From: Octopus sinensis
Lineage: Eukaryota
Length of the DNA: 11,660 nt
Assembly: GCF_006345805.1 (NCBI RefSeq)
Contig: NW_021826932.1
Span: 1-11,660 of the forward strand
Direction: 5' to 3'
The notes under the pieces were generated by a model. That model was not told the DNA's origin. It was given only the letters and a program-made list of their open reading frames with translations, and ran no database searches. Of this stretch, positions 3,237 through 10,284 are shown piece after piece (the first letter of the stretch is position 1; each line of letters begins with the position of its first letter). The position numbers were made by a program, and so were the translations under genes.

Positions 3237-3311
3237 AACTCGTACCGCGGTTTCTGCTTCTTCTAGCAAAACACAGAATATGTTTTCTAAGGCTGGCTTC
3301 ATCAGCGAGTC
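3237..3311 (-). ncRNA. Type I hammerhead ribozyme motif (HHR-B copy 1)
   Basis: Minus strand: gactcg CTGATGA agccagcctt-hairpin-agaagca GAAA ccgcgg TA cgagtt. Stem I gactcg/cgagtt. Palindromic stem III. Predicted cut between 3243 and 3242. Confidence 0.8.
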
Positions 3312-3676
3312 GCCTGAATTTAATCGAGGTCTAGCAGCGATGTGGGGCTATATGTTAAACCCGACTACTAGCAGATCTTAACTTTCAAATCTCTGCGCAC
3401 GCAAAATTTACACGGGCATGCGGGAAGAATTTTACGAATAAATTCATCATGTAGTCGTTGCATATAAACAAGAAGGGTAGTAATATTATTTACTACCAGG
3501 TGCCCAGCACAAAACGAATTAGTCATAAGACAAAAATATTATTCATATAGAAAAATATTATTCATGTGGTTATACAATTAAGGGCTCCTAAATAAAGAGC
3601 CGAGTGCTGGGGAACACAAAAAGGGGATGAATTTATCGAGAGTGAAAATCAAAAACGTTTTACCGATAAATTTAAC

Positions 3677-3751
3677 AACTCGTACCGCGGTTTCTGCTTC
3701 TTTTCTAGCAAAACACAGAATATTTGCTAAGGCTGGCTTCATCAGCGAGTC
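3677..3751 (-). ncRNA. Type I hammerhead ribozyme motif (HHR-B copy 2)
   Basis: Same core: tcatcag 3739-3745 and taccgcggtttc from 3683. 440 nt from copy 1. Confidence 0.8.
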
Positions 3752-4120
3752 GCCTGAATTTAATCGAGGTCTGCAGCGATGTGGGGCTATATGTTAAACC
3801 CGACTACTAGCAGATCTTAACTTTTCAAATCTCTGCGCAGACGCAAAATTTACACGGGCATGCCGGGAAGAATTTTACGAATAAATTCATCATGTAGTAT
3901 GCGAATATAAACAAGAAGGGTAGTAATATTATTTACTACCAGGTGCCCAGCACAAAAGACGAATTAGTCATAAGACAAAAATATTATTCATATAGAAAAA
4001 TATTATTCATGTGGTTATACAATTAAGGGCTCCTAAATAAAGATGCCGAGTGCTGGGAACACAAAAAGGGGATGAATTTATCGAGAGTGAAAATCAAAAA
4101 CGTTTACCGATAAATTTAAC

Positions 4121-4196
4121 AACTCGTACCGCGGTTTCTGCTTCTTTCTAGCAAAACACAGAATATGTTTGCTAAGGCTGGCTTCATCAGCGAGTC
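4121..4196 (-). ncRNA. Type I hammerhead ribozyme motif (HHR-B copy 3)
   Basis: Same core: tcatcag 4184-4190. 444 nt from copy 2. Confidence 0.8.
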
Positions 4197-4291
4197 GCCT
4201 GAATTTAATCGAGGTCTGCAGCGATGTGGGGCTATATGTTAAACCCGACTACTAGCAGATCTTAACTTTTCAAATCTCTGCGCAGACGCAA

Positions 4292-4860
4292 GTCACAAGT
4301 CTATCCAAAAAGGCTGAAATGGGTTCGCGAGAATGGAGAGAAGAGCAGATGTCATCTGGGGTGTGCGGTTGCTTTCGGACAATTCATGGGGCACGCATAT
4401 TCCATCTTTCGGAACCATTCCATGTTGTTGAAGATGACGATGAACAGCTGATAATGCAGGATTTTCTTCAGGTAAGGCCTCATGGGGCTTATCATTAAAC
4501 TCACCTGGACGTCGTGTTCTATCTTCACCTTCAAGGCTGAAATTTCCACTTCTGAATTTTGCAAAACATCTTTTGCAAGTTCTTTCATTCAAGTATTCTT
4601 TCCCATAAACCGAGTTTTTTTTTTTGTTTTCTACTTATAAAGAATTAGGTACTTCAGATGTACTTTGGATACTTCCACGTTAGAAAGGGTTTTAACCAAA
4701 GAAATTTTAATTCTATTATTCTGTAAAAACTTATTTAATTAGTTATTACACATATGCATAAAAATATCTTTTAATTCCATGAGATATTCTAAAATACTAT
4801 TAAATTTCATTCAATTATAAAAACAGTAAAATCGGACAGAACTTATGGGATGACCTGACA
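4292..4860 (-). mobile_element. Truncated mariner (Tc1/mariner) relic: left TIR and degraded transposase N-terminus
   Basis: ERTCKRCFAKFRSGNFSLEGEDRTRRP resembles the mariner HTH region. CVPHEL corresponds to the WVPHEL linker motif. After a frameshift FLDRLVT ends at 4292, just before the expected GDE catalytic motif. TIR-like tcaggtcatcccataagttctgtccg at about 4833-4858 on the minus strand. Confidence 0.85.
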
Positions 4861-5059
4861 CATACACACACACACACACATACATACACACACACAAGCA
4901 CACACGCGCACACACACACACACACACACGCGCACACACGCGCGCACACACACACACAGACAGACAGACACAGATACACACAGACACAAAAACACACTCA
5001 GACACACACACACACGGACACATACACAAACACACACACACATGCACACACGCTCACAC
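4859..5059. repeat. (CA)n imperfect microsatellite
   Basis: Direct repeat. Confidence 0.95.
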
Positions 5060-7644: not shown

Positions 7645-7871
7645 TATAAACATATACATACATACATACATACATACATACATACATACATACATACATA
7701 GTACATACGTACATACATACATGCATACATACAAACATACACACACACATATATATGTATATATATATATAAATATGCAAATATATATATATATATCTAA
7801 AATATATATATATGAATATATATCTGTATACATGCATGCATACATATATATATATATATATATATATATAT
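7645..7871. repeat. Compound (TACA)n/(TA)n microsatellite
   Basis: Direct repeat. Confidence 0.93.
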
Positions 7872-8505
7872 AAAATATTATTTGAGACAAAACACTATTT
7901 TGCAAAACAAACAAGGAAAGACTTAATCACAGGGAGTGGGTTTTGGTGTATATTGAGGTTTATTAGTTAGTATAGGTATGTGTATAAGTCGTGAGTTTGT
8001 GGTTTACGTGTGTGTATTTTTGTGTGTGAATGTTTAGGTTAGGGGGTTACTTTATAGGTTTGTTATAGAGTTTAGCAAAGGGAGATTTTATCGTTATATG
8101 TTTTTAAGAGTTTTGTTTTATCATGGTTTTTTTTAGGGAATTCGTGGTAATTAGTCTATATTTTCGATATGGATTATATATAGGTTATATATGGATTATA
8201 TACTTATATTTTTTCATTTATACTTTAATTATTTAAAAGTATTATTTTTTATTTTAAAATTTTGATTTTTTAGATTGGAAGTCCACCTGAAGATTGTCGA
8301 TCAGACAAGAAACGATTGTAGTGGCGGTTTTTTTTGACTATTTATTAAATTTTATGTATTGATTAAGTCTTTCCTTGTTTGTTTTGCAAATAGTGGTTTT
8401 GTCTCAAATAATATTTTATAATATTTTACTATAAAATTGGAATTTAATCCTAAATCTGATTTTTTTCCCTGTAATTTGGATATATTCCCTAATATTTATT
8501 ATATT
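7869..8505 (+). mobile_element. Penelope-like pLTR fragment with minimal HHR and an inverted ~60-bp copy of its own downstream segment at the left end
   Basis: 7869-7929 is the near-perfect reverse complement of 8360-8420. HHR at 8283-8324. (TA)n on both sides. Confidence 0.7.
8283..8324 (+). ncRNA. Minimal type I hammerhead ribozyme motif (HHR-C)
   Basis: ccac CTGAAGA ttgtc gatca gacaa GAAA cgattg TA gtgg. 4-bp stem I, 5-bp stem II. Stem III region acgattgt is self-complementary with G-U pairs. Predicted cut after 8320. Confidence 0.8.
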
Positions 8506-8773
8506 AATATATATATATATATATATATATATATATATATATATATATAAAATATATATATACATATAGATATATAACATATATATATATACATATTACA
8601 TATATATATATATATACCATACATATATTATACAAATATATATATACAAATATATTATACATATATTATATACATATGTATATATATATATACATATATA
8701 TACATACATACATGTATATATATATATATATATTATATATATATATATATATATATATATATATATATATATA
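8506..8773. repeat. Imperfect (TA)n microsatellite
   Basis: Direct repeat. Confidence 0.93.
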
Positions 8774-9429
8774 CCAATTTAGGAGTGACCCCAACAGGTC
8801 ACTCGTCCACCAGAAAGAGCAGCCATAACTCACACCCACACCAAGTAATAGTAATTCAGAATTAGGTGAAAATTTAAAAACATTTACCCTAATTCATCTT
8901 TTAGACGTTGCAACGTTTCGTGTCATTAATGATTAAATTAGCTTAATTAAATTAAATTAAGCCAATCTACCATAGGTTACACTTCATCAGTAAAAGACCT
9001 GGGAGAGACAAATATACACTAGGCGTCTGTAATCGACCTACGGGATATCTGACTTAAAATTTTCAAGACTGACGTATTCGCGCGCCAAACTTATCAACAG
9101 TAAATATAAACTGCCGATTCAATCTCAGAATATTCAGAAAATTATCAATTAGTCAATAGGGTAGCAAAAAATTCAATAGAAATCTATCGCTACCAGCGGC
9201 CTGATGGAAAAGAGAAAATAATCATCGACTAAATATATAAATATAACATTTAGGAGTGACCCCAACAGGTCACTCGTCCACCAGAAGAGCAGCCATAACT
9301 CACACCGACCGCAGTAATAGTAATTCAGAATTAGGTGAAAATTTAAAAAACATTTACCCTAATTCATCTTTTAGACGTTGCAACACGTTTCTTCGTCTGT
9401 GTCATTAATGATTAAATTAGCTTAATTAA
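8771..9429 (-). repeat. ~470-bp HHR unit array, left (inverted) block, ~1.4 copies
   Basis: aggagtgaccccaacaggtcactc recurs at 8781 and 9252. The block is the reverse complement of the units in 9430-10509. Confidence 0.92.
8897..8997 (-). ncRNA. Type I hammerhead ribozyme motif (HHR-D, minus copy)
   Basis: tcatcag 8984-8990, taaaaga 8991-8997, tctttta 8897-8903, gacgttgcaacgtttc 8904-8919. Confidence 0.78.
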
Positions 9430-9712
9430 CGAGTAACCTGTTGGGGTCACTCCTAAATTGTTATATTTATATATTTAGTCGATGACTATTTTCTCTTTTC
9501 CATCAGGCCGCTGGTAGCGATAGATTTCTATTGAATTTTTTTGCTACCCTATATTGACTAATTGATAATTTTCTGAATAATTCTGAGATTGAATCGGCAG
9601 TTTATATTTACTGTTGATAAGTTTGGCGCGAATACGTCAGTCTTGAAAATTTTAAGTCAGATATCCCGTAGGCATCGATACAGACGCCTAGTGTATATTT
9701 GTCTCTCCCAGG

Positions 9713-9814
9713 TCTTTTACTGATGAAGTGTAACCTATGGTAGATTGGCTTAATTTAATTTAATTAAGCTAATTTAATCATTAATGACACAGAAACGTTG
9801 CAACGTCTAAAAGA
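9713..9814 (+). ncRNA. Type I hammerhead ribozyme motif (HHR-D copy)
   Basis: Stem I tctttta 9713-9719 / taaaaga 9808-9814. CTGATGA 9720-9726. Stem II gtgt/acac enclosing a 12-bp hairpin 9744-9755 / 9762-9773. GAAA 9792-9795. Palindromic cgttgcaacg. GUC triplet, predicted cut after 9807. Confidence 0.85.
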
Positions 9815-10184
9815 TGAATTAGGGTAAATGTTTTTTAAATTTTCACCTAATTTCTGAATTACTATTACTTGGCGGTGTGAGTTATGGCTGCTCTTTCTGG
9901 TGGACGAGTGACCTGTTGGGGTCACTCCTAAATTGTTATATTTATATATTTAGTCGATGACTATTTTCTCTTTTCCATCAGGCCGCTGGTAGCGATAGAT
10001 TTCTATTGAATTTTTTGCTATCCTATATTGACTAATTGATAATTTCTGAATAATTCTGAGATTGAATCGGCAGTTATATTTACTGTTGATAAGTTTGGCG
10101 CGAATACGTCAGTCTTGAAAATTTTAGTCAGATATCCCGTAGGCATCGATACAGACGCCTAGTGTATATTTGTGTCTCTCCCAG

Positions 10185-10284
10185 TCTTTACTGATGAAGT
10201 GTAACCTATGGTAGATTGGCTTAATTTAATTAATTAAGCTAATTTAATCATTAATGACACAGAAACGTTGCAACGTCTAAAAGA
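10185..10284 (+). ncRNA. Type I hammerhead ribozyme motif (HHR-D copy)
   Basis: CTGATGA 10191-10197 and GAAACGTTGCAACGTC 10262-10277. Cut site is 470 nt from the previous copy. Confidence 0.83.

What the first reader, a model, noticed from the sequence alone, without database searches (positions are those of the whole stretch)
3245..10277. All four HHR types have self-complementary stem III, suggesting dimeric activation
Seen: actgcagt (452-459), accgcggt (3244-3251), acgattgt (8312-8319, with G-U) and acgttgcaacgt (9795-9806). These are four different sequences with the same property. Established: minimal HHRs with unstable stem III (newt satellite 2, Penelope-like elements) cleave efficiently as dimers. 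Inference: cleavage would be conditional on tandem transcription, so arrays would be active and solo copies (387-471, 8283-8324) largely silent.
Basis: partly seen in the sequence, partly recalled or inferred. Interest (0 to 1): 0.7.

Follow-up and report, generated by a model that had tools for sequence, protein, structure and literature searches.

The report
Hammerhead retrozyme repeats with palindromic stems
Four non-coding repeats in this animal DNA carry hammerhead RNA motifs whose third stem is self-complementary, an already published trait of such mobile repeats that likely speeds cutting when copies lie in tandem but is probably not a strict on/off switch.

Summary
All 8 of 8 intact type I hammerhead cores in the window have a fully self-complementary helix III (0.06 cores per shuffle). 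It is not four independent cases: the 400 and 3250 families are homologous (63%), and the 9800 family is probably a distant relative. The trait and the dimer model are published (Perreault 2011 Fig. S8; Cervera 2014, 2020). The elements are protein-free 445- and 469-nt tandem units plus two single-ribozyme insertions, all beside (TA)n; two show the inverted ends typical of Penelope-type insertions. They are likely non-LTR retrozymes. Folding models favour the double hammerhead by 5-8 kcal/mol in the native arrays, so dimer enhancement is likely. Strict dependence is doubtful: none is a minimal hammerhead, the 12-nt case forms a stable 4-bp helix as a monomer, and a published coral monomer cuts at about 0.8/min. 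'Solo copies silent' is untested. One extra lead: three families share a long loop-2 hairpin and a predicted helix I/loop 2 pseudoknot with one compensatory change, which could support monomer activity. Ordinary overall.

The parts
213..518 (+). Element A: 306-nt single-ribozyme copy between two (TA)n tracts; diverged relative of family B
   Evidence: (63% to B, E 3e-14)
385..471 (+). Hammerhead A: core 396-402, helix II with G-U at its base plus long hairpin (403-448), helix III ACUGCAGU 452-459, predicted cut after 460
385..412 (+). Predicted pseudoknot in A: 385-390 complementary to 407-412 (6 bp)
   Evidence: prediction only
3132..4291 (-). Array B: 2.6 head-to-tail copies of a 445-nt non-coding unit; 3' end abuts (TA)n at 3091-3135, 5' end abuts a mariner remnant
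3234..3315 (-). Hammerhead B1; helix III ACCGCGGU 3244-3251, H17 at 3243
3674..3755 (-). Hammerhead B2; helix III 3684-3691, H17 at 3683
4118..4200 (-). Hammerhead B3; helix III 4128-4135, H17 at 4127; A-A opposition at the base of helix II; predicted pseudoknot 4200-4197 with 4178-4175
7873..8491 (+). Element C: single-ribozyme insertion between (TA)n tracts, with a 57-nt inverted copy of its 3' part at the left end (7873-7929 against 8360-8416)
8283..8324 (+). Hammerhead C: core 8287-8293, 5-bp helix II, helix III ACGAUUGU 8312-8319, predicted cut after 8320
8773..9428 (-). Inverted arm of element D (1.4 units): one intact hammerhead (8896-8998, helix III 8905-8916) and one 5'-truncated one (about 9345-9428) whose break lies in the loop-2 hairpin
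9429..10513 (+). Direct arm of element D: 2.3 copies of a 469-nt non-coding unit, ending at (TA)n
9710..9815 (+). Hammerhead D1: core 9720-9726, long loop-2 hairpin, helix III ACGUUGCAACGU 9795-9806 (4 bp + tetraloop), predicted cut after 9807; predicted pseudoknot 9710-9713 with 9733-9736
10187..10281 (+). Hammerhead D2: core 10191-10197, helix III 10265-10276, predicted cut after 10277; upstream strand carries small deletions and lacks the pseudoknot match

Best explanation
Eight intact type I hammerhead cores with self-complementary helix III sit in four protein-free repeats beside (TA)n tracts; these are likely non-LTR retrozymes or Penelope-end derivatives whose tandem transcripts would be cut to unit length, with pairing of two neighbouring palindromes likely raising the rate without being strictly required. 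Shown: cores, palindromes, tandem and inverted layout, no Pfam domain in the B, C and D translations, A/B homology, head-to-tail joints of B in other data sets. Predicted by folding: in a two-unit transcript the palindromes of adjacent copies pair into one 8-bp (A, B, C) or 12-bp (D) helix and form two cross-cutting hammerheads. Inferred from published families: monomers are ligated to circles, a Penelope-like reverse transcriptase copies them round into concatemers, and these insert at (TA)n as tandem or inverted arrays. Expected gradient (inferred): B and C strongly dimer-enhanced, D largely competent alone, A a truncated relic of uncertain activity.
For: 8 of 8 cores palindromic against 0.06 cores per shuffle. 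Double hammerhead favoured over the best single monomer by 7.6, 7.8 and 5.0 kcal/mol in the three native pairs. Duplex advantage 10.6-17.9 kcal/mol for native loops against a mean of 4.1-4.8 for non-palindromic loops. Two-sided loop change UGCA/CGCG between homologous A and B. Unit sizes 445 and 469 nt, GC 0.38 and 0.34, circular folds at z -3.5 to -4.4 against 40 shuffles. The 445-nt go-back joint is present in 4 of 4 runs laid, including a DNA-type run. Copies within an array differ by 0-3 substitutions and 5-14 indel events, as expected of one concatemeric insertion plus probable long-read error. Partial tandems, a 5' inverted truncated copy and microsatellite targets are described for Penelope-like elements (Craig 2021 passages); vertebrate retrozymes are reported as derivatives of Penelope ends (Li 2026). 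A common variant at H17 (A to U, 27% of depth in X7, 20% in X15) stays within the NUH rule.
Against: No cleavage was measured. No helix II here starts with the usual G10.1-C11.1 directly against G12 (A-A in B, D1, D2; G-U in A; U-A in C; only D0 has it, possibly through a sequencing deletion); Perreault's filter would reject such mismatches, so some copies may be weak or dead. B's proximal helix II has only 2 bp. Even the double hammerhead lies 7-8 kcal/mol above the ensemble in the native context (tertiary energy not modelled). 8 of 9 Xenopus retrozyme dimers did not cleave in vitro. A read-through transcript of the D locus is predicted to bury D0 and D2 in one long duplex (101 of 103 and 94 of 95 nt paired outside themselves). 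No partner Penelope ORF could be sought, since no genome is held. No target-site duplication can be read inside (TA)n.
Confidence: 0.68

Rival explanations
1. Obligate dimer switch: monomers are essentially inactive, so only arrays are processed and solo copies A and C are silent.
For: Helix III of A, B, C is unfavourable as a hairpin (+1.9 to +2.9 kcal/mol); monomer fold costs 4.6-10.3 kcal/mol for these families. The Schistosoma minimal ribozyme was inactive as a monomer; axolotl monomers reached only 6% and 22% in an hour and dimers were much more efficient. Axolotl Amex2 (2-bp helix III, mismatch at the base of helix II) resembles B.
Against: D has a 4-bp helix III and a monomer cost of 1.4-2.7 kcal/mol in local or first-copy context. 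A coral monomer cleaves at about 0.8/min and a mussel repeat at about 0.1/min; that paper describes invertebrate helix III as 2 bp + tetraloop. A predicted pseudoknot could stabilise monomers.
Confidence: 0.2
2. Monomer-competent ribozymes stabilised by a Watson-Crick helix I/loop 2 pseudoknot; the palindrome is kept by descent or for another purpose, such as pairing of two separate RNAs or of cut 3' ends.
For: Positions -10 to -7 are complementary to the loop-2 internal-loop strand in A (6 bp), B1-B3, D0, D1 (4 bp): 6 of 7 copies, with a C-G to U-A change between B and D; about 1% per lineage by chance at that register. Such pseudoknots raise rates 20- to 100-fold in a tested type II ribozyme (PMC3088659 passages). 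D keeps a perfect 12-nt palindrome that it does not need for stability.
Against: Found after the fact, three lineages only, one compensatory pair; D2 lacks it and C has no equivalent. In A the same bases can pair with the 3' strand of helix I instead. The pseudoknot is compatible with the dimer too, so it does not exclude the best explanation.
Confidence: 0.25
3. Fossil or inactive motifs: the repeats spread as DNA satellites or as passengers and these ribozymes no longer cut.
For: Mismatch at the base of helix II; alternative minimum-energy folds bury the core in isolated A, B1-B3, C, D0 and D1; A is truncated and 63% from B; most tested Xenopus dimers were inactive.
Against: Core letters are intact in 8 of 8 copies while surrounding helices changed in compensatory fashion between A, B and D. 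None of the 40 best-supported variant rows falls in 4128-4216 (84 further rows were not shown).
Confidence: 0.12

Closest known systems
Non-LTR retrozymes of metazoans (Cervera and de la Pena 2020, PMC7229834; parts 2-4 of 6 and passages read; supplement unreadable)
   Same: [quoted passage not shown]
   Different: Units of 445-469 nt are at or just above the 150-450 bp range; long hairpin in loop 2 and a predicted Watson-Crick pseudoknot in place of the canonical loop contacts; D has a 4-bp helix III; expression and circles not shown here.
Hammerheads of Penelope-like element ends (Cervera and de la Pena 2014, PMC4209133, parts 1-2 of 4 and passages of one supplementary file read; Weinberg 2019 review PMC6765202, passages; Lunse 2017 seen only as a title in a reference list)
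   Same: Palindromic helix III/loop 3, proposed dimeric cleavage, single dispersed copies from truncated insertions, pairs on opposite strands a few hundred bases apart.
   Different: These are not minimal (2-4 bp helix III plus tetraloop); G10.1-C11.1 is not directly at the core; no RT or GIY-YIG remnant found in B, C or D.
Repeat-type hammerheads with palindromic stem/loop III (Perreault 2011, PMC3088659; abstract, passages, sections 8 and 13, machine-read Fig. S8)
   Same: The same observation across Schistosoma, Aedes, Nematostella and Xenopus; as far as the garbled figure text can be parsed, one Schistosoma variant has the same helix III as family B. Pseudoknots between stems I and II are reported for about 40% of hammerheads.
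   Different: Their filter rejected mismatches at 10.1-11.1, which B and D carry; the machine-read figure lists only those four taxa.
Penelope-like insertion structure (Craig 2021, bioRxiv 10.1101/2021.04.23.441226, passages) and retrozymes as PLE derivatives (Li 2026, bioRxiv 10.64898/2026.07.22.740005, parts 1-3 of 5)
   Same: Partial tandems, inverted 5'-truncated copy, a tail on one end only, (TA)n targets.
   Different: Tails here are longer (about 75 nt in C, about 110 in D, against 30-40); the Naiad clade that prefers (TA)n lacks hammerheads, so the partner is more likely a canonical clade such as Neptune (inference).

Membership tests
Type I hammerhead ribozyme | Core C3 U4 G5 A6 N7 G8 A9 / G12 A13 A14 A15 / U16 H17 with open helix I | tested here: met
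   8 of 8 copies; consensus as defined
Type I hammerhead ribozyme | Base pair 10.1-11.1 adjacent to the core | tested here: inconclusive
   Paired in A (G-U) and C (U-A); A-A in B1-B3, D1, D2; G-C after a bulged A in D0. U-U mismatches are known to be tolerated; A-A was not found in what I read
Type I hammerhead ribozyme | Match to an Rfam hammerhead model | tested here: not met
   No hammerhead family reported at E up to 1 (window) or 10 (B and C regions); long loop-2 inserts are a likely reason for A, B, D but not for C
Type I hammerhead ribozyme | Site-specific self-cleavage | not testable with these tools
   Only contigs were available
Minimal PLE hammerhead (min-HHR) | Helix III absent or reduced to a 0-2 nt palindromic insert | tested here: not met
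   2 bp + tetraloop in A, B, C; 4 bp + tetraloop in D
Non-LTR retrozyme | [quoted passage not shown] | tested here: met
   B (445 nt x 2.6) and D (469 nt x 2.3); A and C are single copies here
Non-LTR retrozyme | Non-coding, low GC, no LTR structure | tested here: met
   GC 0.34-0.38; no Pfam family in three sense frames of B and D or six frames of C; no tRNA
Non-LTR retrozyme | Multi-copy in the genome, also in tandem elsewhere | tested here: met
Non-LTR retrozyme | Expressed as unit-length linear and circular RNA | not testable with these tools
   Only contigs of runs not on record as RNA
Penelope-like element derivative | Partial tandem plus inverted 5'-truncated copy at microsatellite targets | tested here: met
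   C and D have inverted arms; all four abut (TA)n
Penelope-like element derivative | Sequence homology to the end repeat of an autonomous PLE | not testable with these tools
   No genome held; no relatives in the metagenome or viral collections

The most novel reading that the evidence does not exclude
Families A, B and D are an undescribed retrozyme lineage whose type I hammerhead replaces the canonical loop contacts with a Watson-Crick helix I/loop 2 pseudoknot carried on a long hairpin and tolerates an A-A pair at the base of helix II; the differing helix III palindromes act as family-specific pairing codes (self duplexes -11 to -18 kcal/mol for A, B, D against -1 to -6 across families), and D has lengthened its palindrome to 12 nt so that it can both cut alone and still dimerise.
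Probability: 0.3. Interest if true: 0.45.

Novelty: new member of a known kind. Interest (0 to 1): 0.2.

Why it matters
The palindrome-and-dimer idea is textbook for animal hammerheads, so the finding as stated adds little. The window is still a compact natural test set: related ribozymes with 2-bp and 4-bp helix III, in solo, tandem and inverted settings, would let one ask why the palindrome is kept when the monomer does not need it. If the host is a cephalopod (my guess from the microsatellite load, not shown by any search), these would be retrozymes from a group for which my searches found no description.

Tried and rejected
Whole-genome survey: no genome is held for this window. Rfam: no hammerhead hit; the 121 window hits are microsatellite-driven, below gathering scores. 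Relatives in public contig collections: 1 metagenome and 20 viral matches to a helix III + downstream-motif pattern; 1 of 21 had a CUGANGA within 100 nt upstream and none gave a BLAST match to A-D, so all were treated as chance. Sequencing runs: no RNA holder listed; 20 of 24 rows hold the B stretch, 4 were laid, all as contigs, so ends, strand and level of any RNA could not be read. One run guessed to be RNA has a 475-nt contig that closes the 445-nt unit on itself; tandem DNA gives the same, so it was not counted as a circle. Pol III boxes, tRNA and octamer motifs: none in A, B, D; one loose A-box-like match in C, ignored. Protein remnants in B, C, D: none. Homology of C to A, B or D: not significant. 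'Four independent sequences' was rejected. 'Minimal hammerhead with unstable stem III' was rejected for D. Lunse 2017 could not be read and the supplement of PMC7229834 was unreadable; both may show helix III sequences or loop-2 variants that bear on novelty. Earlier scan notes: four of five look-ups returned nothing.
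Full report
Setting. The window is animal-type DNA dense in microsatellites (29 tandem rows). I take it for an octopus-like genome from its look; that is a recalled impression, and the run table gives only coded organisms. No genome is held.

Observation. A descriptor scan finds type I hammerhead cores in four repeat families: A at 396 (+), B at 3305, 3745 and 4190 (-), C at 8287 (+), D at 8990 (-), 9720 and 10191 (+). In 8 of 8 the stretch from A15.1 to U16.1 is fully self-complementary. The same descriptor gives 0.063 cores per shuffle in 300 shuffles, and none of the 7 chance hits with a helix III of 8 nt or more was self-complementary. 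Because the arms of any hairpin are complementary, only the four loop bases count: 7.7% of 4-mers are Watson-Crick palindromes and 14.9% with G-U, so about 9e-4 for three lineages. Rfam lists no hammerhead family here.

Not four independent cases. A aligns to B at 63% over 228 nt (E 3e-14). D shares with both a motif just after the cut (7 and 6 of 2000 shuffles; upstream not significant) and the same loop-2 design. C is unrelated. The homology weakens the count but gives better evidence of another kind: loop 3 reads UGCA in A and CGCG in B, a two-sided change that keeps the palindrome.

What the elements are. B is 2.6 copies of a 445-nt unit (3132-4291); D is 2.3 direct copies of a 469-nt unit (9429-10513) preceded by 1.4 inverted copies (8773-9428); C (7873-8491) has a 57-nt inverted copy of its 3' part at its left end; A (213-518) is a 306-nt piece. 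All abut (TA)n. B, C and D give no Pfam match. Copies within an array differ by 0-3 substitutions and 5-14 indel events, which suggests one concatemeric insertion and a noisy assembly; single-base oddities of D0 and D2 may be errors. Laying four public runs on one B unit shows the 445-nt head-to-tail joint in 4 of 4, a variant A17 to U17 at 27% and 20% of depth in the two large runs, and 3 contigs in one run that end in (TA)n at 3898, about 118 nt beyond the end seen in the window. None of the 40 variant rows shown lies in 4128-4216, but 84 rows were hidden, so invariance of the palindrome among copies is not established. This layout matches Penelope-type insertions (Craig 2021 passages) and non-LTR retrozymes (Cervera 2020; Li 2026).

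Monomer or dimer. Helix III as a hairpin costs +2.9 (A), +1.9 (B), +2.4 (C) and -0.9 kcal/mol (D); as a duplex it gives -11.1, -14.1, -5.8 and -17.9. In the native two-unit transcripts the double hammerhead is 7.4, 8.5 and 7.5 kcal/mol above the ensemble, against 15.0, 16.3 and 12.5 for the best single monomer. Non-palindromic loops give a mean duplex advantage of 4.1-4.8 against 10.6-17.9 for the native loops. Monomer costs: isolated A 7.9, B 4.6, C 5.2, D 1.4-1.6; nascent first copies A 9.3, C 8.9, B3 4.6, D1 2.7; second copies after an upstream cut B2 9.1, D2 7.5; circular units B 4.7, D 3.5. These are secondary-structure estimates without tertiary contacts or Mg2+. A transcript running through the whole D locus would instead pair D0 with D2, so that array would be active only from an internal start.

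What is in print. Cervera 2014 states that most metazoan type I hammerheads have a 1-2 bp helix III capped by a palindromic loop and fold as dimers in tandem repeats; minimal ones were inactive as monomers and weak as dimers. Perreault 2011 Fig. S8 tabulates the palindromic stem/loop III of repeat-type ribozymes. The 2019 review says the same of PLE ribozymes. Cervera 2020 reports efficient cleavage by a coral monomer (about 0.8/min) and a mussel repeat (about 0.1/min), and dimer enhancement in axolotl; I did not see the coral loop-3 sequence. Early newt work also showed monomer cleavage given loop contacts (PMC6155905 passage). Li 2026 found 1 of 9 Xenopus dimers active. So the trait and model are known, and tandem arrangement is neither always needed nor sufficient. 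Searches for a cephalopod description showed none; the 2026 Octopus vulgaris repeat annotation has no occurrence of ribozyme, hammerhead or retrozyme. The library lacks most subscription papers, and Lunse 2017 and two supplementary files could not be read.

An extra feature. A, B and D share a short helix II, an internal loop (A-R-C-C-U opposite an A-rich strand) and a long terminal hairpin. The bases at -10 to -7 before the core (AGGC in A and B, AGGU in D) complement that loop strand (GCCU, ACCU) in 6 of 7 copies; D2, which has small deletions there, and C do not. The register, after about 6 bp of helix I and 4-5 positions of helix II, is where loops 1 and 2 meet in canonical ribozymes. Chance is about 1% per lineage, but the pattern was seen after the fact and rests on one compensatory pair. 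Pseudoknots at this place are known and predicted in about 40% of hammerheads, so this is a variant worth testing, not a new class.

Verdict. Observation confirmed; interpretation partly supported and already published in its defensible form. New members of a known kind; interest 0.2.

Noticed in passing
window 385-412; 4200-4175 (-); 9710-9736; 9000-8974 (-): Predicted helix I/loop 2 pseudoknot shared by families A, B and D with one compensatory pair; absent in D2 and C.
   Followed up: partly
window 403-448; 4183-4139 (-); 9727-9791: Long hairpin inserted in loop 2 of A, B and D, with an A-A opposition at the base of helix II in B and D; the inversion break of element D falls inside this hairpin (9428/9429).
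   Followed up: partly
window 7931-8275: 345 nt upstream of hammerhead C are strongly strand-biased (C 3%, T 50%, G 22%); no protein match; unexplained.
   Followed up: partly
window 4292-4634 (-): Mariner-type transposase remnant (Pfam HTH_48, E 4e-6), very abundant in the laid runs; cut off at 4291 by the 5' end of array B. Loose ends there in 4 of 4 runs continue, read by eye, into a GDEKW-like motif.
   Followed up: partly
window 476-497; 4108-4087 (-); 9823-9846: Motif GTAAAYGTTTTT..TTTTCA conserved 15-19 nt downstream of the cut in A, B and D; function unknown, possibly a signal for ligation, export or the helper reverse transcriptase.
   Followed up: partly
window 8773-10513: The inverted plus direct arms would form a duplex of several hundred base pairs in any read-through transcript, a potential substrate for RNA editing or silencing.
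   Followed up: partly
window 1387-1700 (-), 1860-2110, 7170-7340: Fragments that look by eye like a LINE 3' end and two SINE-like repeats (recalled resemblance; the one Pfam test, of 1470-1700, was blank).
   Followed up: no
window 3132-4291 and 8773-10513: Copies differ almost only by small indels, suggesting an unpolished long-read assembly; single-base features of individual copies should be treated with caution.
   Followed up: yes
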